This document shows, in pieces, positions 1 through 58,410 of a stretch of 64,000 nt of DNA (positions are counted from its first letter, which is position 1; every line of letters starts with the position of its first letter). The notes beneath the pieces were generated by a model. It ran no database searches. It saw only the letters and a list, made by a program, of their open reading frames with translations, and had not been told where the DNA came from. The DNA comes from Amphiscolops sp. MND2022. Lineage: Eukaryota. The stretch spans positions 40,550,001 through 40,614,000 of the forward strand of contig OZ076409.1 in NCBI GenBank assembly GCA_964187785.1, read 5' to 3'. Position numbers and translations under genes: made by a program.

Positions 1-3000
1 TAGATTTGACATTGGCGTCAACGAAGAATTTACAGTCAAATTGACCCCAAAGGACGAATCACCTGCTTACAGTCAGAGCCTACCTACTCCGGTCCACCTC
101 AAAGAGGACATATTGGTCGAGCTGGCGTTACTTCACAAATATGGTATTATAACGACATTACCATTCTCAAAGTACGCCAGCCCAATATTTGCGCAGAAAA
201 AACCCAATGGAAAACTGAGACTGTTGGTGGATTTGAGAAAAATTAATAATCTGATCTCAGATGATTACGTCAATAACAACCACCCAGTCAGCACCTTGGC
301 GGACGCTGCGGAACACATGCCCGGCAAAAAACTTTTTTGTAAACTCGACTGTTCACAAGCTTACCATTGTCTCCCCATGGCAGACCAGAAATCCATTGAA
401 ATGCTAGCCTTTAACTTCGCCAGCAGGACATTTGCCGACAGGAGATTAGCTCAATGACTCAGCCGAGTCCTATCGGCCTTCTCCAGTTTCATGAGAGAAT
501 ATATGGATCGTGTTATAAAAGCCGACCAATGCGCTCAATATGTAGACGATATCGGCGTTGCGGCAACAGATGCCAGCCAACTCATCGCCAACTTAAGAGC
601 AACATTCCAATGCATTAGAGAAGCGGGATTGAAACTATCCATGCACAAATGCCATTTTGGGGCCACTGAAATCAATTTCCTTGAGAGTACAATTACCCCT
701 GAAGGGGTCAAACCACAAAAGGAAAGAATTACCAATTTCTTGGAAAAAACGAAATTTCCGAAGTCCAAGAAGGCCATGCAACCTTATCATGGCTCCTCAA
801 TTACTACAGGAACTACATACCGAGATTATCCGAAAAATTAGTTCCATTCTTCCAATTCCTCAAAAAAGACGAAAAGGTCCTAGTAACAACAGAACTAGTA
901 GAACAATTCAATGAGATCAACAGGGACGTAGACAGGTGTAGTCAATTAGCACAGAAACAACCCTTACCAATCAAACAATTGGCCCTTATGACCGACGCAA
1001 GTTTTCCGGCCGCCGGTCACGCCATACTGACCGAAGACGACCCAAATCAGAAATTCACGTCCGTCAAAAAATCCTATGCGCCAATAGCAAATGGATCAAA
1101 AACACTCCTTCTCAGCTCAAAATGTCAATATATGCAAGGAATTCCTAGCAATATATTATGCGTTCAGGGAGTTCGGACACATCTTCTGGGAACACCTAAA
1201 CCAGTAATCATCCTCACCGATTATAAATTGGTCACAAGGTTCTTCCAGACAAAGATAATACCAGCGCCACTCTGGAACGCATGTGACTTTGTGATCCAAT
1301 ACAACTTCACTATAGCTCACATTCCAGGTAAAAATACCACAGCGGCGGATTACCTGTCCCGCATGGAAGTGGACTCTAAGGAAAAATTAGTCCTGAAAAT
1401 ACGTGAGGAAGTGGAAACACAACCAATCGAAGTTAATGTCCAATCGGCGGGAGTGTCTGAATCAGAATCTTCTTTTCACTGGAGAAGACAATGAAACGGA
1501 AGAACAGATTTGGGAACGGAAAAAACTATCCCAAAAGGGATTCAAGGTCCCTGAGCCAATAATACACATTGACGCAATTACGGAAAATTCTGAGGAAGAA
1601 ATCACCAATTTCACTTAGAAATTACGACGAACAAACCAAATATTACTAGAGCAATCTAAAGATCAGACGCTACGACAATTGAAAGCAAAAATCCAACAGG
1701 AGGAATATTCAGAGGGAATTCTTCAACAAGATATTCGGTACAAACATTACCTCCAAAATTTGGACCGTCTAGTCCTGAAAGATGAAGTTACAACACGACA
1801 ATACTATGATGAAACTGGACAAGTTAAATATCACCAAATCCTACTGCCAAAACATTTACTGAAAGAGCTGCTGCAAGCAATTCACGGCACGACACATCGA
1901 CACCCAGGCATTTCAAAAATGCTACCGGAAATACGACAAAAATACTACTACCCAGGAATAGCAAAACATGTTAAGAAGTGGGTAGAAGGATGCGAGATTT
2001 GTGCCAAGGACAAGCGTGTCCCGAACAACGCAATAACACCGGAACTCCTTAATCTGCCTGAATGGGACCTTGGACCAGAAGATGCCATGCAAATTGACTT
2101 GCTACCAAATTTGCCCGCTAGTAGAGGATACCAAACGGTAATGACAGCGGTTGACGTCTTTTCAAGATTTTTATTTGCATACCCGCTAATTGAGGCAACT
2201 GCCACAAATGTAGCGAAAGTGATAATTGATATCATGACGAAACCATCATACCTGCCAACAACCGTCATCACGGACAAAGGGTCCGCGTTTACCTCCACAA
2301 TTATAGCGGAAATTACAAATACTTTGGGCATAACTCTCAGATGCGCCACAAAGAAACACCCGCAGACCATTGGCAAACTAGAAGGGACGCATGCCTCACT
2401 TAAAACAAATTGAAAAACGGCCTCAGGGGAATATCGACGACAATGGCACTAATACCTGCGATTAGCTGTGCTCAACTATAATACTCCACACCATTCTAGT
2501 ATTGGATGCGAGCCAAACAAAGTCTTTCATGGCCGAATCCCCTTCAACGTCCTGGATCATAAATTGGGAAACAACCCCAACAAAAATTTCCTGCCAACTA
2601 CAGAATTTGCAGAAGAAGTACAAAATAGGAAACGAATCCTCACAGATCAAAACAAAAAGAATATTATGCAGTCTTATTTGAAATACAAAGACTACTATAA
2701 CAGAAAAGCCAAAGCTGCTCCGCTTAAAGAAAAGGATTATTGCTTTATATTGCAACCCAAAGCTGACAGTCAAGCATCAAAAATTCAATTTAGAGAATAC
2801 CGATGGATTGGACCTTACATCATTCAAAAAGTCTTAACAAACGATAACTATATCGTGCGTCGGATTATTACCAATAAAACGCAAATACTACACCGGATTG
2901 GATTTAAAAAATTTGTACCTTATACGCCCTTACAGGACAATTACTCCGGCGAAAAGCTACAACCCGACGAGGAGATAGTAATACCGCAAGACGATTTGTA

Positions 3001-3095
3001 TACTATTTCAAGGGAGGTAGACTTTGACTATGACTTATTTGAAACAAGAAAAGATGATTGGCCGGACACAGCCAAGCGTCTGCCGAATGACGCAA
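1..3095 (+). pseudogene. pol: Gypsy pol (RT, RNase H, integrase) with stops and frameshifts
   Basis: ORF pieces 41-457 (KLRLLVDLR, KLDCSQAYH), 491-841 (YVDDI), 979-1494 (RNase H, ADYLSR), 1679-2413 (H-x4/5-H...CEIC zinc site, QIDLL, TDKG) and 2468-3127. Confidence 0.95.
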
Positions 3096-6000
3096 CCAGG
3101 GATCACTGGATATATTACCAGAGCTAAATTGCTGTTCACGCTCTTTAAACTGGTCCACGGAAGCTTCGCTCGTAGAGTGGGCAATTCCATTGAGCACCAT
3201 TGTCAAGTAAGACTGTGCGGGTAAGAGGACATCAGTAAGGCGACAACGTGGACTCTGGGCATCGACATCTTGGAACTTGATAGCTGGCAACAAAGCTGTC
3301 TCCTCACTTAAGCATAAGCAGCTCAGTCGAAATAGACGACACAAATGAGGCCGATCCTGAAGCTCAGGCATTGAAATCAATAAATCAACCATGTCAGTGA
3401 AACCGTCGGTGGAACCCTTTAAAGCAGAATGAGTATGCTGGAAGTGGTCAACAAACTCCATATACTCATCTCGGCAATCCGCCTCAGAGAAATCTTCAAG
3501 CCAACCGCGTAGTTGGAAACTACGGACTAACGGGACGAAACAATGAGTGGCCTGCTCCATAGAATTGCCCAGTAATATGTGAGGATCGAATGTGGCCATC
3601 CCCTTGACAATGTCGGCATTGAGGCTGATATGGTTCAAAAACTCTTCAAGTGAGAAAACTAGATAACTGCATGCCCGACTAGCAAATTCATCTTAATAGG
3701 TAGCAGCGAGTTCAGTTTTAGCAGCCTCTGTGGTCTTCTGCTCACCCAGTTCCCTCTCGGCCTTAGCTACGGCGGCAGCGTCCAGATCTGTTCTAAGATT
3801 GAGGCGAATCAAGAAATCCTCAGTGGACAACTGACGATGAGTTGCAGTTTGTAACTCTCCCAATCGGGTCCAATCTCCCTCTCGAGGACCGAATTTTGGA
3901 AGCAGGGAACGGTAACCAAGCTTTCTCACGTATTGGTTGAGTTGGCCGTAAGTGAAGAAACCAAAATCGCATCGGCCTTGCAAGCTCCGCTTGAAACACT
4001 TGTTGTCTAAAGACAGAAAAGAATCAGGTAATGCAATTTCAACCAAGAGTAAACACCTTGAGGAGACCTTAAAGGTTTACGGAAGAAAAGAATATGTGGG
4101 TGAAAGATTATAGAATACTAACAATCAGTGACGATCCGCCCAAAGAAGTCTAGCTTGCAAACGAAGAAGTCGTCTGTGATCATGAGCCACTCAAGTCTTT
4201 GGGGCTGTAAAATCAAAACAAAACGTTAGCCTCTTGGATAACCCACCATCAATTACACTAATCGGCAGACAAAGTTGGAACACTTGCATTGTTCTTGGTT
4301 CCTTCCATGCCATAAGTTGGGGCGTGTTTCATCAAGTAGTTTAAGATAGGTTCCCACTGACAGATGATCTCAGAACAAATTGTCGGGATAGCCTTAACTG
4401 GAAGGTCACTTGAGTCGAGAGCCTGGAAGAAAACGGAAAATGTACATACTCATTGGCTCCAGCCATCTTGGATAACATAGTAATACTACCTTAGACAACT
4501 CAGGAGTATGGACGATCCATGGTTCACAATGGCAGCCATTGAGGAACGCAACCAGGTACTTCAATTGAGTGTAAAAGTCAATGCGTACGAAGACACTCCC
4601 CTCTTTACGATGCATCAAGGTAGTCAGTGAGAGCGAGTTGAATCGAAATGGGTACTCGATACCCTTCTTTAACAAGGTGGAATTTTCAAGAGAACGAAGG
4701 GTAGCAAAGGAACAACCAGACAGACAGACGCCCTGTGGCCCAGTTGAGAAAGAAGAGAGAACCTTGGTGATACTCTGTAACTGGCCTACTGCTAAGTCTG
4801 TGGAAGAAGGGTAACGGGTTAACTGACACTTGGTCAAAAGAATCGTTCTTCCAGACTCGGAGTGACATCACACTGAAATTGCCCTTGTACTCAAATTCCA
4901 GTGAGTAAAAGCCACTGGTATTCACGTGCTGTCCAATGTCCTCAAGGCCACGAAGAAAGACGTGGTGGAAGATAGTCTGAAAAGAACACAAAAAAGGTGC
5001 TAGGTTTAGAATTTGACTCTAAAGCGGAAAGGCAAACTACTGAATGATACGTACTGTAAGTGCACTCGACCCCCAGTCCAAGTCTGAGAAGAGATCCTGG
5101 TGGTTCTTGAAGGCACCGACTTCGGTCCACAGGGATTGAAGCACGGAGATGTTGCCGCAGTGTCGAGTAAAGAATACCAACAGGGAAATCTGGGTGCCGA
5201 GACGCACATCAGCCCGGGTAGTGTTACCCCCCATTCTCTCCAGGTATTCGTCATAGAATGGATACTTGGGTCCGATGTTGACGAGCACAGTAGTTTCAAA
5301 GAGGGGCTCTTCTTTCTCCAACTCCATTGCTGTTAAAATATGGCCGTCTTTGGCCCCAACTTCATGTTTGGTGACTCCTGTTATTCTGTCTTTTTTTCCT
5401 AGGTGCTCATATCTCCAGCGCTGATCCTTACGGAGATGAGCCTCCGACTGGTTTGGCCTGATGATTTCGCGTGCTCTTTTGGAGAATATCGACACGTTGC
5501 TCTTACAAATTTGACAATGAAATTTGTATTTATTGTGTACAGGGTCTAGTGGTCCGGTGACGAAGATCCTCGTCCACTGAATGCCCTTGAAATACGCAGG
5601 CTTCGTTACCTTTCCAGGCTTGCTAATCATCCTGCGTCTTTTACGGGGCGGACTTCGGCCAGATGGAGTAGCTGTCGGTGAGGCCCTAATGGTTGATAAA
5701 GGAGCATAATCTCCTTCACTGAATCCTGAACTTGGAATCCCGAATTGAGTTGGACTGAGGGTAGTCTCATTAGGGTCATCAGGGCCCTGAGCGTCCATCA
5801 CTCCGAGGCAATGTGAGTGCTGGGACTCACATCGAAAGTAGCAATTTCTTCATCGAAGGGTAAAGCGCCACTTGTATAACCATCTGTGGAATACCCCTCA
5901 GTGTCTGTCCCCCCGTCTGAACTATCAGACATGCGTTGAGAAGCAGATGTCGTTCGCTGTACAGTCTTTCGGAAATGACTGAGTCTCTGTATTCCCCTGT

Positions 6001-6839
6001 GAGCTGCATGCATCAATAAGGCTTTCGTACCATGCACGGAAGACTGGACTGTTTCTGAAGAAATATTGCGCAAGATGGCATGAAGTTGGGGTTCAGTAAA
6101 TGCAACGGTAGGATGTCCCATAGGAATGGTGACTGGTTCGGCCTTGGCAAAGAACTTACGCAGGATGGCCCGCCCATTAGCTGAAAGCTGTTCTGGAATT
6201 TTTGGTCCAGCGTAGGAAGTACTGGTTTGAGGCCCAACTGGAAGTCCTTCAGCGGTGAAATTTCCCTCATCCTGCGTAGTGAGATTTTCAGACCCAACGA
6301 TACTGGAAGCTGCTCGATTAGGGACTCCTATCACCCCTTCACTGTCAATCAGGTCCTCCACTTCGCTTGTGTCAGTTGCAAAGAAGTCAGAATGGACTGT
6401 ATCCCGTGCAGGTCTATCAGTGGATTCAAGGACATTCGTTGGATCATCACCCTTAGTTTGGGTCTGTGGAATTAAATCGCCCTCAATTGCGTCCGACACA
6501 GAGGCCTTAACATGGGCGTCCTGTTGAAGAACTTCCTGACCAGAGTTCTCAGGGGCATCTAGGAAGGAGACGTCTAAGTTGGCGTCAACTGCTCCAAGGT
6601 TGTGCAAAGGTGCGTTCAGCATATGCAGTAAGGCTCTCTTCTGTGGCACCACTTGAAGAGGAGAACTTGGAGAGTGGACGTGCCTCAGTAGGAGGATTGG
6701 TTTGTTCCACTATTGCCGTGTCTGTCCGTTCGTCAGGGTTTCTGTCTGGCAAGATGTTAGCCGTATCCTGTGCTTCAGTTGTCATTCCTAAATAGTAAAA
6801 GGCAAAGTCAAGCGGAAAGCTTCCTGAATATGAATCCAT
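3095..6839 (-). pseudogene. Antisense 5-exon accessory gene of element 1 (Zn-finger, hAT-transposase-like protein). Exons 6839-5055, 4976-4490, 4422-4288, 4204-4123, 4006-~3095
   Basis: Donors GTACGT, GTAGTA, GCAAGT, GTTAGT with pyrimidine-rich AG acceptors. The spliced translation aligns exon by exon with the element 2 gene. Zn finger CQIC...H present. Contains a few frameshifts and stops. Confidence 0.85.
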
Positions 6840-8043
6840 TTACCGCATTTAAAAATCTTCCGAAAGTAGATAAAGTTGAACACTCGTGAAAACTTGTGTT
6901 ATTGGACAGGAATTACATGAGTTGATTGGGAGTCCTGATCAACCTAATTCAGTTCAGAATGAAACAGGAAGGCAACTTACTCTGAAGTTGATGGAATGAA
7001 GACTCGTGATAGAAAGGGCAAGTTGATCTAGTCGACTGAATTGTTAATGAAGTCTGGAGCAATCCGGCAAAGCTGTAGCTCGATGTAATTGAACAGGACA
7101 ACACTGCGTGAAGAAATTCAGATCTGAGGAGGAAATCAGGAATCGTGGTAGGGAGCTGCCAAGAAGGGGACTGGAAGTCGATTGTCCGGGAAAATCCGAA
7201 AAATCCACAAGGGAAAGGGCGATTGGACACTGAGTCCCAAAAGGAAGATTATGTTAGAGAGGAGTACAAATAAATACAAAGAGAAACTAATTGACTAACT
7301 ATCGGCTAAATACTAATATTGACAATGATTAAATACTGGGAAATACGAGTGAAGAAGGAAATAAAGGAATTTAATATAAACGAATTGAAAGTTGATGGTG
7401 TCAAATTTGGTGTCAAATTTGTTGTTATTTACAATTTGCAGCGTTATGTGGATAAAGTCTGCCAGCGGTATCTACATCATTTCATTTATTTCGAAAACTT
7501 TGTTATTTTTGAGAATTATTTCATGATTTTATCATTATTTTATTTAATTTCAAGGTCATTTTATATTATTCTTTATATGGACTTACGACCTTGGGAAGCC
7601 ATTTTAACTGGGGAGGAATTTTGCTGCATTTCTATTGGGTGATCAGATTGTTGGTGGACGGCGTGGCTGATTGCCATATCTTCACCTACTTGAAACTCTC
7701 AAGTACCTGATGAGTGTTACTAAACACTTGAAGTAACACTCCTAGACTGAGAGTGCTAGCATAACTGATGATGATCAACAAAGAAATTGTCGGCAGATAT
7801 GAAGGGCCTTAGCGGCTTGATGAAAGGTTTTAGGAAGGAACATTTTGTTTTTGAAAACTTACCAGACGGGAAACGAAACAGAAAACACGGGAAGAAAACT
7901 CGTGATTTGGTGAAAATCCCGTGAGGCGGTGAAGAGAAGGATCGCCATTCGTATGATTTTAACCGCTCAAGTCAGCTGCCTCCGAACCCCAAAATACCAA
8001 AGTCCTTTTCAAAATTGCCAAAAAAGTAATAAAAGCTAGATTC
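6840..8043. promoter_or_regulatory. Putative bidirectional internal promoter between the antisense gene and ORF3 (element 1)
   Basis: Divergent ATGs at 6839(-) and 8044(+). The motifs GTCTGCCAGCG, GAAGCCATTTT and ATTTTAACCGCT recur in the same order in element 2. Confidence 0.55.
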
Positions 8044-8865
8044 ATGTCTGACGTTTCTGAGACATTCCCTATGGACTTCCTGGGCGCTGCTCAATCTGAG
8101 GGAGCTCCTGCAAAAATATACATTTCAAGCGATGAAGATGAAAGGATGGATTCCTTCGACGGTGACTCAGTGGACGACGTCTACGTCTCATCTGAAGAAG
8201 AAACGCTGGATATCGAAATTATAGCGAGATGCATAGAGAGACAAATGACCGAACCCAGTAAAAGTCCCAACTCTGAGACATCAGGTACCCAGGCTAGGTG
8301 CGGGACACCCAAGCCCGATTTGCCGCCCTTCCCTACGTTTACACAACAGTTTTTCAACCTGGGTATGGGCAACGGACCTATTGGACGGGATGACCGAGTT
8401 AGACCCAGTCATCCCATTAATATTTGCAGAGACCTACGACCTAATATTGATACCCCAATGCCGCCACCGCCAGAAGATAGGGGACCAGCCTACGAGCAAG
8501 ATATACCGACTTGCTTTTACTCGGCGAGCTCTACTTCAGTCGAGACTGTGGCAAATCACTTCAATGATATGACAGTGTCTGGAAACGCTGGCCTGTTGGG
8601 CTGCTCAGACTGCGTAGTTTGTGGGAAGCCAGATCAACAAATACAGGATGAAGCAGTCAATGACTTTCTCAACAAAACAGTTGTTCCAGGCGAGACGTTA
8701 GCTGAAACCGAGAGAAGAAAGAGAGCTTTCCTAGACGGTATGGCTGCTGGCACGTTTTGACTCATGCCAGGGGGAGTGTCGCAGGCGGCCGCCTGCGATG
8801 GTAAGTGGTACACAGTCGCATATAGTTATTGCAGGGCCCTACCCGGAACAATTCCACTAGATTGA
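8044..8865 (+). pseudogene. ORF3, acidic accessory protein that crosses the PPT into the 3' LTR (one in-frame TGA at 8758-8760)
   Basis: The 238-aa ORF continues in frame as LMPGGVSQAAACDG...PGTIPLD*. SQAAACDG and PGT are conserved, with synonymous changes, at the start of element 2's LTR. Confidence 0.7.
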
Positions 8866-10031
8866 GGAAATACAAGCAGTTGGGCCAAGAAGTCCAAGGC
8901 AGAAATAATTAAAACTTTTACGATAAAACTGGTTTGTAATACTGGTTTGTGTTATTATAGCATGTAATTGCATTCCGGTGGTAGCTATATTACTTGTAAG
9001 GTATATTTTAAAACATGTAAAAATAATTAGATGTGCTGTGAATTGGACACAAGGCGTACAGGCAGAGGAAACGCGTTCAGAGTGTTTCCTCTCCTGTCGC
9101 CGTGGACAAGCAGTCCAAATTAAGTTCAACCAATCACATTTCATCATTCAACTGAGCACTGCCTTCTTTGTCATAGAAGTGCAGTTGTCCCTTAAGGGCG
9201 AACGAGGCGCTGTAACGCCTTTGATGTGCCAATAGGTCATTACGTCATGTAACCCGCAAACAAGTGATGCTATTTTTAGATTAGTAATTATCTATTTTTA
9301 GAACATGACAGTTATTTTTTCGATAGTCATGCAGTCTATCATATATATACCCGGGACTCTTGGACCGGGGGACACAATTTGATGATATATGCAGCCTATC
9401 AAATGGTTTTATTCTTTTTGCAAGCCTAAAGATAATTAATTCTTACCCCTTGCAATTGTCTCTTATGCCTTCTACAAGGAAACAAAAGGCAAAAGCTAGA
9501 AAGTCAAGGGAAGTGGACATGATGTCTGACTTTGAAAATATGGACGTAATGATAGGAAATGAAAACACTAATCCTATTGAACGCGAACTTTCAAACATGA
9601 TCGGAAATGGGGTAAATGGTCAAGACATTGAGTCCAATCCCCAATCTTCGAGGTATGAAACACATGAAAATGAATTTGGGCATTATGCTCATGAAAATGC
9701 AATTCCTTGCAAGACAGGGTTCAAGAGACGCTGGAAACCTTTACTAGCGAGTTCAACATGAGACTTTCGCAAGAAATGGATTCAATGATGTCATTAATGC
9801 ATAGTCAGATAAACAGGGCGATTAGTGCAGCGATAACTGAGAGAGTAATTCCAGAGATTTAAATTATAGTGAGTTCGATTTCATCCTCCGGGAATCGAGA
9901 CACTGAGGCCAGTTCGTCTCCCAATAGCCAGGAAAACGCTGAAATGAACAATGGGTTTAGAAACAAAATTGCGAAAAAGGACTCACAGTCTACTGGTGAC
10001 CTTAGAACACCTAGAGACAGCAGTCCTTACA
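8777..10031 (+). repeat. 3' LTR of element 1 (~1.26 kb), containing the ORF3 C-terminus and the gag N-terminus (ATG 9465)
   Basis: PPT immediately upstream and TG...CA ends. Homology to element 2 starts at TGTCGCAGG. The gag-like MPSTRKQKAKARKS...GDLRTPRDSSPY stops where element 2's LTR ends. Confidence 0.8.
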
Positions 10032-11180
10032 GATTGTTCGTTGTTGGTTGCCACCCAATGTAAAATATCTTGAAACTCTTGCCAAGATCTTGAATTTTCC
10101 TGCCAATTCCCGTTTCCTCTTGAAACCCTTGATAAGATCTTGAACTATCTTGAACCGCTAAAAATCTTAAAATTCTTGAAGTTTCTTAAGGTTCGTGAAT
10201 TCTTAGGTTTTGAAAAATGTCAAGTACATAATCTCATACATAAAAGAACAATATTAAATTGTAGATTTGTTTGAATTTTTTAGGAAGTTTATCCTCGTAT
10301 TTTGGGGCTTTTTGCCAGTTTTTAGGACTTTTATTTTGACACACTTCTCATTGAGAAATTAAATTACATGTTTCTACAAAAAATTAATCATCGGAACTCT
10401 GCGGAAGAACCTCTATCTTATGAATATAAAATATGATTTGCAAAAAAAAACAGAAAATTTGGGAAAAGTTGCGGTCAAGATTTTAGGTTTCCTTTCTCAT
10501 TTAGAAATTGGTGCCGAATTTTTTAAACGCTGCTGAGAGATAAATATTCCTTGCCATGTGTGAGAAATATTCTTTGCTCTTTAATAGTCAACATTTGATT
10601 GTTTCTATTCTGGACTTCACTGACATACAGAGGGATGTGAAAAATTCGGTACTGATTTCTTTCGTACATTTTCCCAAGAAACGTGTTTGATAATTTTTGA
10701 TCTTGAACTATCCAATAAACAATATGGATCAACCTTACTTTACAATTGATTTATTTCGCTTTCCACCAACCCTTAGGACTAATGTTCGAAAACTGTGAAC
10801 GATACCATGTTAAAGTTTGATCATGGTATAAACTATCACTATAGTGTGGTCATAGTTTGTTCACATTGGGAAAGCAAGACAAAGTCTATGATTTTGGGAC
10901 GACAAAGCATGTTAGAACTTTTTTTGCAAAGATTCGATGTCACTTAGCACGTTTTTCTAGGAAATTGGCCTGCAACACATATTTTCACAAACTTTTTGCT
11001 TCCAAGTCGAAAAGTTCAAGGGTTGTGCTAACGAATACTATTCTAGCTGATAAGTTGCTAATCTGATGAAGAGATAGGTTGACAAATCTAAATTAACTGC
11101 ACTCTATCAAGACCATGTGGCAACTGATGTTATATGCATTTTGTGTCTTGATATAATTATGTTTGTCCACAACAATTCTG

Positions 11181-11682
11181 TTTTTAGTCGGGGCTTTTCT
11201 TAAGAAAAGAGCCCGACTATTACAGTCACTCGTTTTTTTTTCTTTTTTTTATTTAAGACAGACTCGAAGCGACGAACGTTAAAATTAACGTTCAACTACT
11301 AAATACAGTACTACTAAAATACTGGCAGCGCATTTGAGATAGTGCAAAGGGTCCCCCCTTTCAGTAAGTCCATTTTTATCGTAAGATACAAAAGAGGACG
11401 AGACTATAGGGTCCCCCCTTTGAGTTTTTTTCGGCACTGTGCGACTTTTTTTTCGAAAATTTTTTTGTCCCCAAAGGGTCCCCCCTTCGAGTTTTTTGAT
11501 ATTTTGCAACGAAATGTATGTTAATAAATCCAGAAGAGTCCCCCTTTTACATTTATCGGCACTATGCGACTTTTTTTGAAAGAAAAAAATTTTTCAAAAA
11601 TTTCAATTTTTTTTCCAAAAAAAATCTTTTGCGCTTTTTGAGCCTTAGATATGGCGCCGACTTTAGACGTTCCCGTCTTGTT
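11181..11682 (+). mobile_element. Helentron-associated-like non-autonomous element (HINE family A)
   Basis: 5' TTTTTAGTCGG...CCGACTA hairpin, internal AAGGGTCCCCC and CGGCACTGTGCGAC subrepeats, 3' GCGCCGACT plus stem-loop AGACGttccCGTCT and TGTT. Many copies in the window. Confidence 0.7.
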
Positions 11683-11689
11683 AATTAAA

Positions 11690-12135
11690 TTTTCAAGTAC
11701 ACTGCATTTTCCACTACTTCAATTAAATTTGAAAATAAATTCCTGTCCCATACCAACACGATCACTTTGTATTTACACTTTGTTTTCTCAAATCCTCATC
11801 TGTTGTGACCACCGCTTCTCAAATAACACGCTAAGCATGAAGCTAGTTTGCAGTTTACTACGAGACTGAAGTTACTTTGCATTTAATTAGCGGTAAAACT
11901 GATGACAAATTATTCGCATTCAAAATGATAGCTGCTGCTTAATGAACCCTGCAAAACTTCAAGGCTTAAAATTGCGGCCAAAATTTTGATCAATCTTTCA
12001 AGCAGATTGATAGAAGTTAAAAACAACAGGGAACTATTTTCGCACGAAAGTTTCCGGAAGAGTTCTAGAAAATCATAATACAATTTGCTGCCAACATTTA
12101 AGCACATGCAAAAAGTTCAAGCAGTTTCAACAAGA
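11690..12135 (-). repeat. Interspersed repeat family E (reverse copy)
   Basis: Reverse-complement similarity to 48812-49250 and 58411-59400, for example AAAAGTTCAAGCAGTTTCAAC. Confidence 0.6.
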
Positions 12136-23718: not shown

Positions 23719-26700
23719 TCAAAATGTTGGCCGAGTGAAAGGAAGGTGACGAAGCTTCACAATATGTCGATTTGCCACCCAGTTTTGTGTTCGAACTTCG
23801 ACCACTCGAGCACAGCCATCGTTGCCTTTGAATATTTTCAGGACACGTCCGAGAAGCCACTGCAATGCTTGAACGACGACCTTGAAGGTTTCATCACCAT
23901 CGTTAGTCCACTTATTTCTTTTCTGAAGGGTAGTTAAGTACGATCTATACCATTCTTTCCATATTCGTTTTGATCTTCTCTCCATTTCTTGAAAATCCTT
24001 GAAAGTAGCGGGTTTGGGTTTGAAGTTCTTGGTCAGTATTCGTCTAATATTCATCGGTCGCCCAATCAGAAAGTGTCCTGGAGTCAAGGCTGTGAAGTCA
24101 TTGGGGTCATTCGAAATTGGTGTTAAAGGTCGTGAGTTCAGCAGGCTTTTTTTTGAGTCAACAAGGTTTGGAAGTTTTCACAGCTCATAACTAACGTCCG
24201 CATTTCTCGCCGCAAGTGATGCTTCATTGATTTAATCACAGATTCCCAGAGGCCACCTAAGTGTGGTGCATGAGTGGGAATTACTAGCCATTCAGTTCCC
24301 AAATTATTGACAGATGTTTGAAAGCTGGTTGACGAAACAGTTTGGTAAAAGGAGAGATCGGTTTCTTCTTGCATTGACAAGGTTTCTCGCGCAGCTAGGA
24401 AACTGGGAGCATTGTCGGAAAATATCTTAGAACTTTTTCCCCGCCTGGCAAAGAACCGCTTGAGAGCTGCGAGGCAGGACGCTTCAGTCATTGATAGCAT
24501 ATGTTCGATATGACAGGCGATAGTACTCATGCAAGCAAAAATAAAAAAAAATGGCAACTGACATTGCAAATAAAGGGTCCCGAAACATCTACACCAACAT
24601 TTTCGAAATCCATACTCTGGTTTACAGTCTCTTCCGGAAGATCGCCCATCAATTGGTGCGTATGTTTCTGTGAGAAACGGCAGCAAATGATACAAATCTT
24701 CAAGAGCTTCTTTATCAAGCTTTTAGCGGAAATAATCCAAAAATGTTGGCGAGTAATTGACAATAACAACTGACAACCACCGTGCAATGATTCTATAAGC
24801 GTATCGAATATTATCATCTCAGCAATAAGAGAAGCCTTCGAAATTAAATACGGATGCTTCATTAGCGTTGGGCAATCAGAGTTTCTCAAACGTCCACCGA
24901 CTCGAATCAAACACTTCTCGTCAATAAAAGGAGTGAGATTCTCGAACTTGAATTTTTTCGGAACAGCCTTATTGCCATTGAGATAATCTTTCAGCCTTGA
25001 TAAATAAAATTCTTGATGACACTTGATCAAATGTTCAGTTGCAGTTTGAATTTCTTTGGCCTTCAAAGGAGCTATAATCTTTACATTTCGACTCAACATT
25101 TTCGCAAAACGTGTGACGTAGACAAATACGCGTACCAATTTTTTGAAGCTACGGAAACGAGAATGATTTATTATTTAAATAGAATTTTAATGATGTCTAA
25201 GTTATTTGAAGTCCACTTACGCAGCTGGAAGCCTGCGGATTGCAACAAATCGATCAACTCGGTTTGTATTGCGAGTGCCCTTTCAATCGAATCTGCCCCC
25301 GACAGTAGACCATCCTCATACATGTCTCTTTCTATGATTCTCCGAACTTCGGGCGAAGCTGTTCTAGCTAGAACCATGAGACATTTGATCGAATGATGAG
25401 AAGAGGACGCAACCCCGTAAAAGAGTCGAGTCATGCGCAAGTGCTGCACCGGTCATTGGTCTGTTCACGCCATAACAGTCTGTGGTAATCCCGGTCTGGT
25501 TTGTCAAGAGCCACTTGTCGGTACATTTTCGCTATATCGGCGCTAAACGCAACAGCGTGTAAGCGCAATCGCAGAACAATATAGAAAAGGTCACTTTGTA
25601 GCTTTGGCCCGATCATTAGTCGTTTATTCAAAGAGACACCAGAAGAGGTTTTAGCAGATGCATCAAAGACAACACGCAACTTGGTAGTGATGCTGTCTTC
25701 GTTGAAAACGCAGTGATGTGGCAAATAATAAGAATCGCTGTTGCTAATAACAATTTCCTTGTCTGGGATTACCTCCATATGTCCTAGTGAAAGAAACTCA
25801 TTAATAAAGGCAGAGTATCTCTGTTTCAGATCCGGATTCATGTTTAGTTTGCGTTCCAATGCATAAAAGCGACGAAGAGAAGGAAAAAGAATTTCCTCGA
25901 ACACCGATGGATTGTTTGAAAGGTAGTTTTACAACGAAGCGACCAGTTTCATCGCGGTATGTAGTTTGGTCAAAAAAGTTCTTGCATTCCATTTCCTCTT
26001 CAGTCTGATTACCTATATCAGGGACTTCTTCGAGTCGCCAGAAGTTTTGGAGTTGGGAGTCCAGTGTGTGGAGGCTTTGTATGCTAATACTATGTTTTGC
26101 CTGCACTGCGCCCATTACAACCCATCCAAGTTTAGTTTCTGTGAGAGCCAAACCTGTACCAAGTTTGGTTTTGCTAGATAGCAGTAATTCTTCCAAAACA
26201 TCTGCTCCTAGGATCAAATCGACTGGTGCGGGTTCAGAGAAGTAAGGGTCGGCCAGTTGCATGTTTTTAAGTTTGCTCCAGTTGAAATTTTGAACCTTTC
26301 TACTGGGCAGTTTCTGAGTAAGTTTTGGTAGTATGAAGCCTTTAACATTTATGGGGTCGAATTGTTTGGGTAAGATCATGAAGTCACTGAACGCCCTAGA
26401 GAGGCTTGTTGAATGACCACCAATGCCATTAACGAGAAGATTTGATGATTGCTTCGGCAACTGCAGTAATTGATGAGCACTTTCAGTTATGAAAGACGCC
26501 TGCGAGCCAGAATCTAGTAAGGCTCGAGGATGAGTGATTCCAAGTTTGCCTTGAACAGGAATAAGAGCTGTGGGAAGGACAGTTTGTGTATCTGTTACTT
26601 TTGAATGCATGGCTGCCGTGTCTGAGTGACAGTTCACTTCATTTCCTCTACAAGGATTCAAGCGCAGTTTAGGATGAAATGAGGTATGATGCCTTTTTTG

Positions 26701-27901
26701 ACACTCACGGCAGCTTGACTGACTGGGACATGCATCGAGTCGATGTCCCACCCGCAAACAATTGAAACATAAGTTATTTCGTTTTATGAAACTCACCTTT
26801 TCTTGTCTTGACATTTTTTCAAACTTTGGACAACCATATAGCTTGTGATCGTTGGCATCACATTCTAGACAAGAATCCTTCTTCCAATGAGTAGCATAAG
26901 AGTGTGTAAAAGATCTCGGATCCCGTTGATTAACCTTCACTTCGAAATCGTTATGTTTATTAACATTAACAACAGCCGCTTCAACACCTGCTCTCAACGA
27001 AGGTTTTAAGTTGCTGGTAAGTCTGGAAGTCAGTGCCAGGAGTGGATAATTCTCATTGTTTCCTGGTTTCAGAGTCCAACTTGTTGCTCACAATATAAAC
27101 GAAGACAAGGTCAAAGTGATTAACAGGTTGGCCAAGATTCTCCAGACCAAGGCGATGTGGCTTAGTTGTCCCTATTAACTTTCGCAGATCTTTTGAGCTC
27201 TCCGACTTCACATTCGGATATTCGAAAATACTCGTCAAATGCGTTCAGGCTATCATCCGAGGATTCGCAAAGCGTTCTTCAAGTGTTTGCAGAGCAATTG
27301 AATATATAGCATCAGTTATTGCAAGAGAGGTTAATAGTTTGGCTGCATCACCTTGCAGAGAAGCTTTCAAATACTGAAGACGCTGCGAGTCCGTTAACGA
27401 GCGGTTATCGTGAACAGAGCTTTTGAACAAGTCATAGAACGAAAGCCAGTTCTATTAGTCACCCTTGAAAGTGGGCAAGTTTAACTTTGGTAATTTGGCA
27501 CTGGCTACTTGACGTGATATTGGCATTGAGCCACTAGAACTGGCAGACGGCTCTCTTCCACCAACATTATCATGTGCGTTTTCAGAACGAACGCGCCGAC
27601 GGATAGTATCAATGTTTAGAAAAATAATGTCATTGGCATCGTTAGCTTCCGTTATTGTATCTTCCATCTCGTATATTTCCGTGTGTCCTTGTATTTGAAG
27701 GTCAAGCGTGGTAATCTGATTCAATTTACTTTCGAGGATTGTGGCTAGTTGTTCAAGTCGGACAAATTGATTGGACGTCAATACATGATGGCTCAGGAGT
27801 TTTTCAGCTTCACTCTTATACTTCGTGCAGATGCCACAAAAAGCAGCCTTCGAACGCTTCAAACTATCAACATTCACAGATATTGACAAAGATGGAGACA
27901 A
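23719..27901 (-). pseudogene. BEL/Pao gag-pol polyprotein (fragmented)
   Basis: KLPKLNLPTFKGD (gag), CFNCLRVGHRLDAC and CRECQKRHHT knuckles, ALLDSGSQ protease, YYLPHH/KLRVVFDAS/ADIAKMYRQ RT, RVGGRL, SDNAPSF, PHLGGLWE and LTPGHFLIG integrase. Confidence 0.95.
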
Positions 27902-29218: not shown

Positions 29219-30394
29219 CCTGGGTTGACCCTCCATGGTTATCGTAGTAAGATCTTGGCAAGATCTTGGAACAATCTTGGCTAAGATCCTGTCAAGATCT
29301 TGCCATGGCATTACGACGCATAACCCTACACTTTTTGAAAACAGCGGAATTGACTGCTAGCACCTACCAGACCTGGAATCCGCTGTTTTAAGTGACGGAT
29401 TTCAAAGACACACTTTATAACACGTGCAGCGGAATCGGCTTGCATTCTTCCGGGATTCCGGGGACAAATCTCTTTACATTGAGTTTTCGGTGGATTCCGG
29501 AGGCAAATCTTATTACATTACCGGGTATGCATTTTGCCATGGTAAGATCTTATCAAGGAAGCCATGTTTCCAAGAAAAAATTTATTGTAAAATCATGTTT
29601 GGCAAGAAAAAATATGGAAGGAAGACAACAAAAATCAAGATCTATGCAGATTTACATTGATGGACATGGCAATTTTCTGTTAGCAATGTATGAATTTTGA
29701 TTCAAGAGGTAATGTTTATTTAGGAAGGCACTGGTTAAATGGTTCTTTCAATTGCAAAACTATCGCCAACAAGGGTGTCAGATAAGCCTCGAGCTTAATC
29801 ATTACCCAAACTGCGCAATGACCGCGGTTTCTAGCAGAAATAGGGCTGCTGAAACAAGCTCAAAGAAATCTGGAGATATTATTTGGCGAAAAGTTCCGGA
29901 TTTTTAGGTGTTTACTGTATAACTTTCCGATAGTGGCTCTGGACGTTTGGGAGCAGTTTTCACCGTCTCTGGAATCAACAGAAGTGATAAATTACAAGTT
30001 TTGAAAAGCCCCTAAAATGACCTTTCAATTGGTACGTTCGCAAATGTCAGTCTTAAACAGCTGAGGAGTTTTTAAGATTCTCGACAAAATTTCGGAAACC
30101 AGAGTACGTTGTCGTAATTTTTCGCAAAGTTTTGCGTGCAAATTTTTTTCAGCGGGTTGAAGCATTGAAAAGAGTCTTCCGATTGAGTCTCGGCTGCTCG
30201 TACCGAAGGTATAAGGATTTTTATAACCTTAGAATTTTGTCCATCGTGATAAGATACCATCTTGGAATAATGTATTATCTTAGTAAGATCTTAATAAGAA
30301 TTTTGCCATGGCATCCATGGTTGCCAAGATATAGTAAGAATTTGGCAAGCTCTTGCCGAGACAGTCAAGATGCTAGTAAGAGGGTCAACCAGGG
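29219..30394. mobile_element. MITE-like element with CCCTGGTTGACCCT-type TIRs
   Basis: CCTGGGTTGACCCT at 29219 and AGGGTCAACCAGGG at 30394. AAGATCTT and CCATGG palindromes in the arms. Confidence 0.6.
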
Positions 30395-30505
30395 TGGTGC
30401 TTTTTAAAGGTTCTTTGGTACGAAAACGTTCTAAAATTGTACAGAAATAGCCTGAATCGGTCGGTATTCAGAAGAAAAATATGTTTTTTTTCGAGGATGC
30501 CATGC

Positions 30506-32279
30506 TGTCGCAGGCTGCCGCCTGTGATGGCACACTGATAACGACAACGGCAACAAACCAAGAAATGGTACCCGGAACTCTACCTACATTTTGAGCAAGT
30601 ACACTGTTGAACTTTAAAAACTCGCATTTAGCAATAATATTTGTTTGCAAACCGTTATATTTGTCAATATGTTGCAGTTTATATTAGTCTGTTAATATCA
30701 AGATTTGGGATTAGCCAAATCGATTCGTTGATGTAGTATACTGAGAAGTGAAATTGAAATGCGAAGTTGAATTGGTGCATTAGCAAACAATAAGCAAGTT
30801 AATCGCGAGAAAGAAACGTGTTCAAGTGCGAAAACGTCCTTTCTAGGCGATGTGACTTGCTGCGTATTTGTCAACCAATCAGATCGTTTCTTTTGATGTA
30901 TAGGTGCTTTTATGCTATAATGGCCGAATAAGGCCTTTTGACTTAATGGAGCTTACGTTCACTAGCACTTTGGTCAAATGGCCTGTTCCGGCCAATTCAT
31001 GCATCATAGTACTTTGTTGTTTAATTAGACTGGTATTTATTCGGAGCTGGTAAATCCATAATTTTAAACTAAATAGAAGCATTTGTAACCCTTTGATACC
31101 CAAATAACCCCAACCAAAATATAATGGACAATTAGGGCCATTTTACCATGTCCCCTTAATGTGCCGTTTATTTTATGGTTTTGAACCCATTCCGGCCTTG
31201 ACATGAAAATATACCTTCACACATATTTGAGTTGTATTAAATTCCTACATGCAATAATACATTCCATTCTTGATGTGGTCAGAAGTAGTCTTGTGTCGGC
31301 ACGTGCCTTCACTTCACTCCGTTGTAAAATATGTAAGCGGAGGTTTTTGTTGACACTTCGATACAATTGCCTTAGTCGGTAATTTGTTTGTAGCTGCTGT
31401 TTTATCAGATGACTTTCAGATGCCATTTCTTAAATGTCCCCTAAAATATGTAGGTGTTGGGACCTTTTTGCTATGAAGTTGTAAAACAGTTGATTCCATT
31501 TTTCTCAACTAGTCATGTAAAAATTGTGATTGTCATTCTCCGAGCAGTACAAAAAGTACCACCCTGCTGGGGAGAGTGATTAAATCAGTTGTTCTGGTAC
31601 TAGTAAAGATACTCAAAATACTCAAAATACAGTTACTCTGATAGTTTTCCGGTTTCAATAATTGAAATTTTCAACCCGGTTCTGTCGTAATGCCTACCAC
31701 AAGGAAACAAAAGAAAGCGAGAAAGTCAAAAAGTTTAGAAATGTTATTTGACATTGAAAGGCTTGATATCATGTTGGGTGAAAATCATTCCAATAGAACC
31801 GAAAGGGACGGAAGCCTTGATAGTACTTCAGTTAGAAGGCATGAAAGTGTTATCATTAATAACTTAGATGAAGGGGAGGAAAACCCCTACTCTGATCATA
31901 GAAATTCCAATGTAAAGTCAAATGCCAATTACGGCCAAAACTCAGCGGACATGAATTCTCAGGCTGAAATTAACAGGTTGTCGAGTGAGTTAAACTCTAG
32001 AATATCTAGAGAAATGGATGAGATGATGAGTAGCGTTAGTTCCCAAATCCAAAGAGCCATAAATGAGGCTATAAGCACTCAAGTCTTGCCTCAAATTCAA
32101 AATGTTATAATGGCCGGACCGGGACGCGAGACTAGAAGAAGATGGGAAACTTCTGTTGAGAGACCGGAAATTAACTCCGAAGTTCAGCCCAATTCCAACG
32201 TGAAAATTATTCTTGGAAATGAACGAGCAATGTGGTGACCACCGCACCGGAGAGTTCACTAACCGAAGTGTTCATGACA
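30506..32279 (+). repeat. 5' LTR of element 2 (~1.77 kb)
   Basis: Starts TGTCGCAGG like element 1's LTR and ends CATGACA (4-bp terminal inverted repeat). Followed by the PBS-like TTGTGACAGGAG, probably a mutated TGG. Confidence 0.75.
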
Positions 32280-33393
32280 TTGTGACAGGAGAAAACGAAT
32301 ATTCAAATCCAGTTCCTGAGTTTCTCACAGGACGTATCCCATCAAGTCATTCCGATCAATCCAATGAGGACATCAACCTTGACACGACGATCCCAGCGCA
32401 CGAGAGAGTCACTACAGCTGCAGATCCTGACCCCATTTCTAGATTGGCCGATGTCTTGACTACTATGCAGAATAGACCAACAGCCCAACAACTCACCATA
32501 CGCCCGGTCAATTCCAAAACCATGACCTTTGACGGCAAAAGTGAGAAGTTTGAGTTGTTCGAAGATCGTTTCCACACTATGATCAAGATGCAGCCAGAAA
32601 TGACCGAACAAATGATAATTAACCATTTTCATTCACTATTAAGGAAAAACGCTCTCCAGACGTTCAGGAATATCAATTCGACAAACAAACAAACTCTTGA
32701 AGACGTACTAGTCATCTTCCGACAAAAATACGTCAAACCTGAGTCACAGGTGACTGCCAAGCATAAATGGCACCGTCTGGTCTTTAATCCCAATACGATG
32801 AAGCTGCCCGATTTCTTTGAAGAATCAAATCAAGGGGCAGAAAAAGCGTCTGGAGACCATGCGCAAAAATGATTAACAGTTTGCTTTACGCAAAACTGCC
32901 ACCGGAATTAAAACAGTCCGTCAACATGACCAGATTAGAAAACGGCTCATACGATGAACTAGTTGCTCATTTGGAAAGAGAACTATAGCTCAACGCCCTG
33001 GAGGAGTCAGACGACCTACCGATGGCAACAATGACTTCCTCATCTGCTAAGCCCAAAACTCCTCTGTCCACTGGGCAACTGTCTGACATCACCTGCAATT
33101 ACTGCAAGGAAAAGGGCCACATGGTCAAGGACTGTGAAAAGAAAAAAGAGAAAGATGCCCAACAAGGCAAAGAGACTCAGGAGAAAATATACCCTGAGTG
33201 TGGGACTTGTGGCAAAAAGAATCATCCGGAGGAGAGTTGTTGGCAAGGCGCTGGTGCGCATCTTAAACCCAAATGCACCAGGTCTGACGACTCAAATGAC
33301 AATAAGCCCAATTCAAAGGCTCAGAAGCCTCAGAACGAACAGACATCTTCAAGCTCTCAATCCTCATCTTCCAACGATGAGTCAAAAAACTAA
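31690..33393 (+). pseudogene. gag: Gypsy gag (frameshifted), starting inside the LTR
   Basis: MPTTRKQKKARKS start, FDGKSEKFELFED capsid-like segment, knuckles CNYCKEKGHMVKDC and CGTCGKKNHPEESC. Confidence 0.9.
33384..33390 (+). promoter_or_regulatory. Putative -1 ribosomal frameshift heptamer A AAA AAC at the gag/pol junction
   Basis: X XXY YYZ heptamer in the gag frame directly before the gag TAA. The -1 frame is open (KLTSPRLQYNELISVRQY...). Confidence 0.65.
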
Positions 33394-44600: not shown

Positions 44601-45240
44601 CCCTCCTAAGAAATGGACCTGAGGAGAATCTCCAGGCAAACCTGGCGCGTCACAAATCGATGAGGCGTTCTCGTCGTCCGTTCTGGAATGTACTCCACTG
44701 ATGTTGGCCGATTTAGGGTCAGTTCTGTCCCGCAACTCAGGTAGTTGAGACTCCGACGTGATGATGACGTGTAGTGCCGACTCTAAGGCTGACAAATCAG
44801 CTTGGCAAGTTTCTTCACCTCCCTCAGACGAAATTGAGGTACTTGACCTCCGGATTTCGGGGACATCAGGCGCCACTGGAGTAGCTTCTTCGGCAGGGGG
44901 TACATTGCCATTCGGACCTGAAGTTGAAGTGCCAACTTGCTGTGGAGCGTGCTCTTGCTGCTGCTCTATTTTTCAAACCATAGCTTCCGCATATGCGGTA
45001 ACGTCGGTACTGCTACCCTGGCTGTTAGCTGGACTGTCTTTTTCAATGATTGCTGGTGAATGAACAGGAAGCCGATCAGTACTCTCTACTTGAAGCCCTA
45101 TAGGTTTCGAAAGACGAACCTCCAGAAGTGGCATGGACATTGGCTTGGGACGTGGTTGGTTCAGCAGCGTTCTTTTTCGGAAGATTTTCTAAACGAATGG
45201 GAATGAAACTTAGCGGTGTACTTCCTTGATATGAATCCAT
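38691..45240 (-). pseudogene. Antisense 5-exon accessory gene of element 2 (Zn-finger, hAT-transposase-like). Exons 45240-43245, 43171-42686, 42571-42437, 42312-42231 and 42157 onward; exon 5 is completed in the duplicate copy 39840-~38691
   Basis: Donors GTAAGT, GTAAGT, GTTAGT, GTAAGT; acceptors TTTCAG, TTATAG, TTCCAG, TATAAG. CHIC...HHRTQRH finger. The start MDSYQGSTPL matches element 1's MDSYSGSFPL. Confidence 0.85.
39031..43317. repeat. Internal tandem duplication with partial triplication: 39031-41000, 40998-41348, 41347-43317
   Basis: Near-identical ~1.97-kb copies offset by ~2317 bp. The middle 350 bp is a third copy of the intron-2 region. Confidence 0.92.
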
Positions 45241-46297
45241 TTTACCGCGATTAGAAACCTTCCGGAAGTGTTTGACAAATTCGAATGAAACGTGTTATCA
45301 GGTTTTTAGTGATGGAAACAGGAAGTATATTTTGAACAAATTTGACCTTGATCAAGTTGAATGAGTTCTAAAATGGAAATCCAAACCAACCTGAGTCAGT
45401 AGACATGTCACTGAAGAATTGATCTGCTACATGTTGGTCCAAGTTGGGACGATTACTGGAAGTAGGGGAATTAACCGAATCCGGCAGGAAAGGAAAGGAA
45501 CACTCTGACAGGAAAATGGGTCTGCAACTGAGATGAGGATGGAGAGAAACAAGTGCCTATGGAGCAAATCCAAGTAAAAGAAACAATTGGAATATAAATG
45601 GAATTGAATTGGAATTAAAATTGGGTAAAGAAATTAGAAAAATGGAGTTCGTGGCTGAAGAAGATTACCAGACTAATATTGTGCGGCTATTTACACATTT
45701 AAATTGTGCTTGGAGTCTGCCAGCGACATGTACAAAGTCTTTCATTATTTACAGCTTACTTAGTTACTGGCTGGTTATGTCCGTTTGCCCTGTTTCGTAT
45801 CACCATTTCGTTCAGTTACCATAATTACCCTTAGTTAGAATTTTCGCCATTTTGGATTATTCAGATTTATTATTTTCGCCATCTTTATCATTTATTTTTC
45901 AATTCACCAAAGCTTGATTCTGATTGGTCGAAGCCATTTTGAGAAAGATTTGTTGTCTCGTGCCGTTAATTACCTTCACGCGGCTCACTAATTACCCACT
46001 TGAAATGATGAAAGTTGATATTTACAACTCAAGCGTTGTTCACACTTCTTATAGTGATGATATTGATGAGGGGTAAATACTAAGTTATCAAAGGATGCCG
46101 ACTGGTTATGAAATTCCATTCAGGAAAGTTTACGACGGATCAGGATGATCAACCGAAATTTTAACCGCTAAATTGGCAACTTCGGGGGAAAAAACCTGAC
46201 TCGGCTAAGTTCTCGGATCAGACAATTTCATTCTACCCCAAATTTCATTTCAATTCTGTTGCCCCTATCATTTTCAAAAATAGCGAAAAAAGTCATC
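45241..46297. promoter_or_regulatory. Putative bidirectional internal promoter (element 2)
   Basis: Divergent ATGs at 45240(-) and 46298(+). Shares ordered motifs with 6840-8043. Confidence 0.5.
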
Positions 46298-46349: not shown

Positions 46350-46549
46350 NNNNNNNNNNNNNNNNNNNNNNNNNNNNNNNNNNNNNNNNNNNNNNNNNNN
46401 NNNNNNNNNNNNNNNNNNNNNNNNNNNNNNNNNNNNNNNNNNNNNNNNNNNNNNNNNNNNNNNNNNNNNNNNNNNNNNNNNNNNNNNNNNNNNNNNNNNN
46501 NNNNNNNNNNNNNNNNNNNNNNNNNNNNNNNNNNNNNNNNNNNNNNNNN
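46350..46549. other. Assembly gap (200 N)
   Basis: Run of N. Confidence 1.
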
Positions 46550-58381: not shown

Positions 58382-58410
58382 GTAAAATGTTTCCGCAGTT
58401 TTTTCTAGCT

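What the first reader, a model, noticed from the sequence alone, without database searches (positions are those of the whole stretch)
9465..10031. Gag begins ~190 codons inside the LTR and reads across the primer-binding site
Seen: element 1's 3' end carries a gag N-terminus (MPSTRKQKAKARKS...) that stops at ...CCTTACA (10031). The homologous position in element 2 is ...CATGACA (32279), followed by a PBS-like TTGTGACAGGAG, and gag (ATG 31690) reads through it. Established: yeast Ty1 Gag starts in the LTR, but only a short stretch lies there. Inference: ~570-590 nt of gag are LTR-encoded, so each 3' or solo LTR would encode a truncated Gag peptide or a Gag-flank fusion, possibly acting in copy-number control.
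Basis: partly seen in the sequence, partly recalled or inferred. Interest (0 to 1): 0.7.

Follow-up and report, generated by a model that had tools for sequence, protein, structure and literature searches.

The report
Retrotransposon LTR encoding third of Gag
In a family of animal jumping genes, the repeat at each end carries the first third (about 190 codons) of the coat-protein gene, so every right-hand or leftover repeat holds a cut-off copy of that gene; whether those copies do anything is untested.

Summary
Confirmed. Element 1's 3' LTR is 8777-10031 (purine tract, then TGT...ACA); element 2's 5' LTR is 30506-32279. Gag starts 567 and 590 nt before the LTR ends. In relatives, intact Gags (560-570 aa) read ...[D/H/Y]|MVTG across the junction. 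159 shorter ones stop matching exactly there and run into unrelated tails; in 158 of 159 the next residue fits a codon starting with the LTR's last A. The primer site matches tRNA-Leu: 11 of 12 bases in element 2, and one relative carries about 44 nt of the tRNA's complement. The same junction peptide marks far-diverged families (24 of 24). The tandem-element rival fails. Copy-number control is unsupported: the LTR piece lacks capsid and nucleocapsid, has no built-in stop, and is broken in element 1; its one ordered part is a conserved ~60-residue helix. Ty1 has the same layout with ~13 codons; my paper searches found no comparable case. Unchecked notes of this scan report 20-60 codons in microsporidian gypsy LTRs. 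No TSD or expression data. New variant of a known kind.

The parts
8769..8776 (+). Polypurine tract of element 1, directly before the 3' LTR
   Evidence: AGGGGGAG then TG; only such run in 6900-9460
8777..10031 (+). 3' LTR of element 1 (1255 bp, TGT...ACA)
   Evidence: same first 9 bases as element 2's start; 3' end fixed by relatives
9465..10031 (+). LTR-encoded gag N-terminus (about 189 codons plus the A of the junction codon); frame change near 9707-9710, stop at 9860-9862
   Evidence: 83% and 93% identical to the two parts of P0242, which continues ...RDSSPY|MVTG
9722..9859 (+). Conserved helical segment of the LTR-encoded part (residues ~91-145 of the reference Gag)
   Evidence: 23 of 46 aa identical to element 2, codon positions 28/31/14; only confident element of the model (helix 81-143)
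8044..8865 (+). Sense accessory frame that crosses the PPT and ends about 28 codons inside the LTR (in-frame stop at 8758); no Pfam match
   Evidence: its LTR part is kept in element 2 (13 of 26 aa, codon positions 15/17/9); continuity across the stop is inferred
9126..9139 (+). CCAAT-box-like 14-mer shared with element 2 (30871-30884), about 350 nt from each LTR start; weak promoter lead
   Evidence: 13 of 14 identical, but score 23 lies within the shuffle range (mean 22.4, max 32)
9342..9349 (+). TATA-like TATATATA, 123 nt before the gag ATG; no counterpart found in element 2
   Evidence: untested
30506..32279 (+). 5' LTR of element 2 (1774 bp, TGT...ACA)
   Evidence: 3' end fixed by 88 truncated relatives
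31690..33393 (+). gag of element 2; the first 590 nt lie in the LTR; frame changes near 32222-32229 and 32812-32869 and one in-frame stop; capsid region from about 32430, zinc knuckles, AAAAAAC heptamer at 33384 before the stop
32280..32291 (+). Primer-binding site inside gag, complementary to the 3' end of tRNA-Leu (11 of 12 in this copy)
   Evidence: best 12-mer match in the window; tRNA-Leu(TAG) in L001
33836..38100 (+). pol of element 2: protease, RT, RNase H, integrase (broken frames)
   Evidence: Pfam
1..3127 (+). pol of element 1 (RT to integrase), 69% DNA identity to element 2
3006..6709 (-). Antisense coding region of element 1 between pol and the 3' LTR; homologous frames in element 2 at about 38700-45000
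   Evidence: tblastx; open frames; no clear Pfam match

Best explanation
These are large Ty3/Gypsy-type LTR retrotransposons of an animal in which the gag start codon sits deep in the transcribed (R/U5) part of the LTR. Shown: the LTR ends after codon ~181-198 of gag; its terminal ...ACA and the tRNA-Leu primer site are read in frame as [D/H/Y/N]-M-V-T-G; capsid and nucleocapsid domains lie downstream in the internal region. Inferred: transcription starts upstream of the ATG in the 5' LTR, ribosomes cross the integrase end and the PBS (as in Ty1), and minus-strand strong-stop DNA is at least ~570-590 nt plus the leader. The LTR-encoded part is a true Gag N-terminal extension under protein-level selection: a basic start, loose linkers and a ~60-residue helix, probably an oligomerising or spacer segment. 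Reverse transcription copies it to both ends, so 3' and solo LTRs carry a stop-less gag fragment that runs into whatever host DNA follows. I read these fragments as by-products without a selected function.
For: Intact Gags: 80 of 84 (element 2 family) have D[MI][VM]TG at D189/195/198; 21 of 21 (element 1 family) have [YH]MVTG at 181/183. Truncated forms: 88 of 115 classified short hits (120 examined, 5 dropped) and 71 of 99 diverge at that residue; 158 of 159 have an ANN-codon residue next. 12 of 79 tails of 20 aa or more match host repeats of this window outside the elements; reversed tails give 0. PBS: P0094 continues MVTGVGFEPTHPKIL, 15 residues equal to the translated complement of a mature tRNA-Leu. 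24 of 24 internal M[VM]TG motifs among 146 distant representatives follow D, H, N or Y (background 0.17). Between elements 1 and 2 only the coding parts of the LTR are alike, and third codon positions differ most. By-product reading: tails average 23.9 aa (median 17) against 19.3 (13) simulated from host flank; only 2 similar pairs among 56 tails.
Against: No full-length element with both LTRs and TSDs was seen as DNA; sister copies are known only as predicted proteins, and 'same contig' rests on equal contig lengths (9 of 21 pairs were unrelated). No transcription start, poly(A) site or translation evidence; no canonical AATAAA in either LTR. For the distant families the boundary rests on the peptide motif alone, since their clusters held no truncated members. 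The protein set is biased to open frames, so selection on solo-LTR frames cannot be judged. Observed tails are somewhat longer than simulated, probably from clustering and length filters (inference).
Confidence: 0.8

Rival explanations
1. Same architecture, but 3'/solo LTRs are transcribed and make Gag N-terminal peptides that join assembling particles through the conserved helix and poison them, so restriction rises with LTR number (copy-number control).
For: Many open truncated frames exist (908 clusters at 100-319 aa; most of the 120 examined are LTR-end fusions). The helix is conserved (0.81-0.94 identity within families, 0.44 between, against 0.12-0.16 for the linkers). Ty1 shows that a Gag fragment can restrict its own element (PMC4551931, PMC10951436; passages).
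Against: The piece lacks capsid and nucleocapsid, whereas p22 and Drt2 contain CA-CTD. There is no built-in stop and the tails are random. Element 1's copy is broken after about 82 codons. Helix conservation is explained by its role in full Gag.
Confidence: 0.1
2. The main or a second Gag isoform starts at the junction Met (A|TG, formed by the LTR end and the PBS); the LTR frame gives a longer regulatory isoform.
For: The junction codon is an in-frame ATG in all families; capsid starts only 50-130 residues downstream; 8 of 150 representatives are called from this Met, although that may only reflect gene calling on broken copies.
Against: CA followed by TGG spells ATG by necessity. The upstream start is well conserved (first 30 aa 0.69 identical between families), and a scanning ribosome meets many earlier ATGs.
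Confidence: 0.07
3. The LTR ends before the ATG and 9465-10031 is the start of a second, truncated tandem element.
For: No TSD or paired LTR in the window; a host repeat begins about 30 bp after 10031 and could in principle have cut the element.
Against: No 10-of-12 PBS match lies inside either LTR; 159 independent relatives break at the same base; the tRNA-Leu site lies exactly there.
Confidence: 0.02

Closest known systems
Ty1 of Saccharomyces cerevisiae (Ty1/copia)
   Same: GAG starts before the PBS and reads through it: 53-nt 5'UTR (PMC7969010, passages); PBS at nt 94-104 inside GAG (PMC4974528, passages).
   Different: About 40 nt (13 codons, my subtraction) against 181-198 codons here, about 14 times more; copia domain order, tRNAi-Met primer; its restriction factor p22 comes from an internal transcript and contains CA-CTD.
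Ty3/Gypsy elements (Metaviridae) with a tRNA-Leu PBS
   Same: Order PR-RT-RH-IN, separate gag with zinc knuckle, TG...CA LTRs, PPT; tRNA-Leu priming is common in some gypsy clades (PMC13524379, passages).
   Different: In Ty3 the PBS lies next to the 5' UTR, not in gag. No env seen here. The RT is divergent: weak best PDB hits were retroviral RTs. The clade was not placed on a tree.
Plant Grande/RIRE2/Retand elements with antisense extra ORFs
   Same: Antisense ORFs between pol and the 3' LTR (PMC7264820, passages).
   Different: Plant lineages; the passages seen mention no gag inside the LTR; no homology tested.
LTR-overlapping retroviral genes (HIV nef, MMTV sag; recalled, no call)
   Same: A long coding frame inside the LTR; the sense accessory frame here also crosses the PPT into U3, as nef does.
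   Different: Those lie in U3 and are accessory genes; here it is the structural gag gene in R/U5, open towards the LTR end.
Microsporidian gypsy LTRs with a gag start
   Same: Gypsy-type gag start with a conserved short helix inside the LTR.
   Different: 20-60 codons and a palindromic site instead of a tRNA PBS, as the notes state.

Membership tests
Ty3/Gypsy LTR retrotransposon | pol order protease-RT-RNase H-integrase | tested here: met
   Pfam Asp_protease_2, RVT_1, RT_RNaseH_2, Integrase_H2C2/rve in this order in element 2
Ty3/Gypsy LTR retrotransposon | LTRs with TG...CA ends, PPT before the 3' LTR, tRNA PBS after the 5' LTR | tested here: met
   PBS matches tRNA-Leu(TAG) from L001, a record that need not be the host species
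Ty3/Gypsy LTR retrotransposon | Paired LTRs and target-site duplication | not testable with these tools
   only one LTR of each element in the window; no genome; no related loci; protein pairs agree
Ty3/Gypsy LTR retrotransposon | RT groups with Metaviridae on a tree | not tested
   no named reference RT set was at hand; Atlas gives RVT_1 clusters only
Ty3/Gypsy LTR retrotransposon | Gag with retroelement capsid fold and CCHC knuckle | tested here: inconclusive
   zf-CCHC E 0.003, DUF1759 just under cut-off; Ty3_capsid and Retrotrans_gag weak in relatives; capsid part of the model low-confidence, no fold hit at E 0.001
BEL/Pao | Single gag-pol frame with BEL-type domains such as DUF5641 | tested here: not met
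   gag ends in a stop after an AAAAAAC heptamer; no DUF5641 hit in the element 1/2 pol pieces scanned, while the separate element at 23.7-27.9 kb has it; the DUF1759 hit in gag is the one BEL-like feature
Ty1/copia | Integrase before RT | tested here: not met
   integrase follows RNase H
Ty1-type layout (gag starts in LTR, PBS inside gag) | Open gag frame from the LTR across the PBS | tested here: met
Gag-derived restriction factor (p22/p18, Drt2) | Contains the capsid C-terminal domain | tested here: not met
   the LTR piece ends at residue ~195; capsid-like region starts at ~250-280
Gag-derived restriction factor (p22/p18, Drt2) | Expressed and lowers transposition | not testable with these tools
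   needs RNA, protein and mobility data

The most novel reading that the evidence does not exclude
The LTR works as a copy counter: each of hundreds of 3' and solo LTRs can express the Gag N-terminal helix fused to a random tail, and these peptides co-assemble with full Gag and damp transposition in proportion to LTR number. In passing the family seeds the host genome with promoter-plus-190-codon gene starts.
Probability: 0.1. Interest if true: 0.85.

Novelty: new variant of a known kind. Interest (0 to 1): 0.58.

Why it matters
The usual picture has the LTR as regulatory DNA and gag starting after the primer site; Ty1 is the known small exception. Here a third to nearly half of the LTR codes for Gag, and the integrase end and primer site are fixed in the protein as a four-residue mark that reveals LTR boundaries and primer type from protein alone. 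It implies a strong-stop DNA of 600 nt or more. It also means that each insertion or solo LTR leaves a promoter with a long open gene start pointing into host DNA: raw material for fusion genes, a source of hundreds of false gene models, and a testable route to self-restriction.

Tried and rejected
No whole genome held. Sequencing runs: none was listed, so no reads were laid. Related loci: none in viral contigs, metagenome contigs (27) or prokaryote genomes (83). The 15-base junction motif gave 35 viral loci, none with gag or pol similarity: chance. No tRNA gene in the window. Folding: the alignment-based model was confident only for helix 81-143; the single-sequence model added nothing; Foldseek gave no match at E 0.001 in PDB or BFVD (PNMA2 and HML2 capsids appear at E 0.7-1.5, not evidence). 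Two-copy complex of residues 80-150: no verdict. Atlas search of residues 1-195: low scores only. The bacterial promoter scan does not apply. The shared CCAAT 14-mer does not beat shuffles. Paper searches for a precedent returned nothing relevant: each listed one paper on another subject (listing only). Phrase search is narrow and subscription journals, Repbase and GyDB are not covered; PMC4399242 and PMC311226 were not held. Rejected: tandem second element; truncation by the nearby host repeat; a non-tRNA primer site.

Full report
Setting. The window holds two diverged LTR retrotransposons on the + strand, about 69% identical over 3 kb of pol: element 1 (E1, 1-10031, 5' part off the window) and element 2 (E2, from 30506, running towards the N gap at 46350). 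The domain order protease, RT, RNase H, integrase is Ty3/Gypsy-like. A separate BEL/Pao-type element at about 23.7-27.9 kb (DUF5641) points to an animal host (BEL/Pao is described as a metazoan subclass in PMC3118150, passages). The host was not identified, and no genome is held.

LTR 5' end. TGTCGCAGG occurs twice in the window, at 8777 and 30506. In E1 it follows AGGGGGAG, the only purine run of 8 or more directly before a TG in 6900-9460. In E2 the first tblastx match to this region of E1 starts there. So 8777 starts E1's 3' LTR and 30506 starts E2's 5' LTR.

LTR 3' end. I searched E2's frame 31690-32235 twice (908 and 240 hits, best 120 of each listed) and E1's piece 9707-10030, with X at its stop, once (381 hits, best 120 listed). 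All hits came from one source type and carry no names. E2 family: 80 of 84 Gags of 555-580 aa carry D[MI][VM]TG at D189, 195 or 198. Of the 120 short hits 5 were dropped (best partner lacked the motif), 15 were classed as ending earlier, 12 continue with MVTG, and 88 run to the D and then diverge. E1 family: 21 of 21 full Gags carry [YH]MVTG at 181 or 183; of the other 99, 25 continue, 3 end earlier and 71 diverge at that residue. If the LTR ends in ...NAC A, the next residue must come from an ANN codon. It does in 88 of 88 and 70 of 71, against backgrounds of 0.40 and 0.43. P0242, 93% identical to the second half of E1's piece, reads RDSSPY|MVTG, and E1 reads RDSSPY|R. The tails are host DNA: 12 of 79 tails of 20 aa or more match repeats of this window outside both elements, 2 more hits came from tails cut at the wrong place, and reversed tails give none. 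Among 21 short/long pairs that I chose by equal 'longest contig' value, 10 had the partner as best match of 164, three of them 195/195 identical; 2 more were 97% identical; 9 were unrelated. This fits the two LTRs of single elements but is not DNA proof. The LTRs are 1255 bp (E1) and 1774 bp (E2), with 567 and 590 nt of gag.

Primer. One relative, P0094, continues after the junction with MVTGVGFEPTHPKIL. A degenerate pattern from the first part of this tail found one metagenome locus, a tRNA-Leu(TAG) gene by ARAGORN and Rfam. Its complement with the CCA end translates to the same 15 residues, the last three of which were not in the pattern. So this copy holds about 44 nt of mature tRNA-Leu complement at the LTR end, most simply an over-copied or unremoved primer (inference from protein only). 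The normal PBS is 12 nt; E2 matches 11 of 12 at 32280-32291, the best match in the window, and neither LTR holds a 10-of-12 match inside. L001 need not come from the host species.

Breadth. A full-library search with an E1-family Gag gave 2119 hits (best 150 listed). Among the 146 new representatives all 24 internal M[VM]TG motifs follow D, H, N or Y (background 0.17). These four residues are chemically unlike but share NAC codons, so the constraint is on the DNA. In eight exemplars the part before the motif is 114-223 aa and is often unalignable between families, while the capsid region stays 26-71% identical. With a looser motif, 22 of 32 representatives long enough to show it have it. For these distant families no truncated partners were seen, so their boundary is inferred.

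What the LTR encodes. Identity between the E1 and E2 families is 0.69 for residues 1-30, 0.16 for 31-90, 0.44 for 91-145, 0.12 for 146-195 and 0.85 for the capsid region. Between E1 and E2 DNA, codon positions 1/2/3 match 26/34/19 of 40 at the start and 28/31/14 of 46 in the helix; the non-coding middle of the LTR aligns no better than shuffles. AlphaFold is confident only for one helix, 81-143. The LTR's first ~28 codons also look constrained (13 of 26 aa, 15/17/9) and continue a sense frame from 8044 across the PPT, so both LTR ends seem to be coding. That frame has an in-frame stop at 8758 and no homologue could be fetched, so this part is tentative.

How it works. Shown: boundaries, frame, primer type, protein-level constraint. 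Inferred from established LTR replication: RNA starts upstream of the ATG, so R+U5 and the strong-stop DNA span at least 570-590 nt plus the leader; ribosomes cross the PBS as in Ty1; the segment is copied to both ends. The 3' and solo copies have no stop of their own. Their tails (mean 23.9, median 17 aa) are close to those simulated from host flank (19.3, 13), and E1's copy is broken twice. I therefore read them as by-products (0.8 for the whole account). Copy-number control stays possible through the helix (0.1), but Ty1 p22 and Drt2 contain CA-CTD (PMC10951436, passages; PMC4551931, passages), which is absent here.

Known cases. Ty1 has a 53-nt 5'UTR (PMC7969010, passages) and a PBS at nt 94-104 inside GAG (PMC4974528, passages): about 13 codons before the PBS. 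Seven phrase searches found no report of a long gag segment in an LTR; that is weak evidence, because the search is literal and omits subscription journals and repeat databases. I read no supplements. Passages of PMC4402516 (Tor), PMC13524379, PMC7264820 and PMC6317226 showed no such layout. Two unchecked notes of this scan describe 20-60 gag codons in microsporidian gypsy LTRs; nothing matched by sequence or in this genome.

Verdict. The feature is real and holds across at least two well-sampled families, probably a wider clade. It is a large extension of a layout known from Ty1, now in an animal Gypsy-type lineage, with a function for the truncated copies unproven. New variant of a known kind; interest 0.58.

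Noticed in passing
window 3006-6709 (-) and about 38700-45000 (-): Both elements carry several kb of conserved antisense coding frames between integrase and the 3' LTR, one with a C2H2/BED-like zinc-finger pattern (5037-5798, 43227-44018; label recalled, Pfam gives only E 0.014). No clear family.
   Followed up: partly
window 39031-41000 and 41347-43317: 2.3-kb tandem duplication (98% identical) inside element 2's antisense region, with a third 356-bp copy; real or an assembly error.
   Followed up: no
window 23719-27900 (-): Separate decayed BEL/Pao-type element (DUF5641, rve, protease).
   Followed up: partly
protein P0094 (no DNA at hand): LTR end followed by about 44 nt of mature tRNA-Leu complement: a primer copied into the genome.
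   Followed up: yes
protein P0366 residues 186-228: Several repeats of the junction-like motif (HHVVTG, HHMMTE, HHMVTG), suggesting tandem duplication of the LTR end and PBS inside gag.
   Followed up: no
window 7456-7491 and 45714-45750; also 6785-6841 and 45186-45242: Short conserved stretches upstream of the antisense frames in both elements; possible antisense promoter or first exon.
   Followed up: no
window 10062-10200, 29223-30395, 60507-61211, 11354-11690, 56800-58400: Host interspersed repeats, some with terminal inverted repeats; they supply many of the tails fused to truncated Gag in relatives.
   Followed up: partly
window 33384-33393: AAAAAAC heptamer directly before the gag stop: likely -1 frameshift site into pol (motif recalled).
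   Followed up: no
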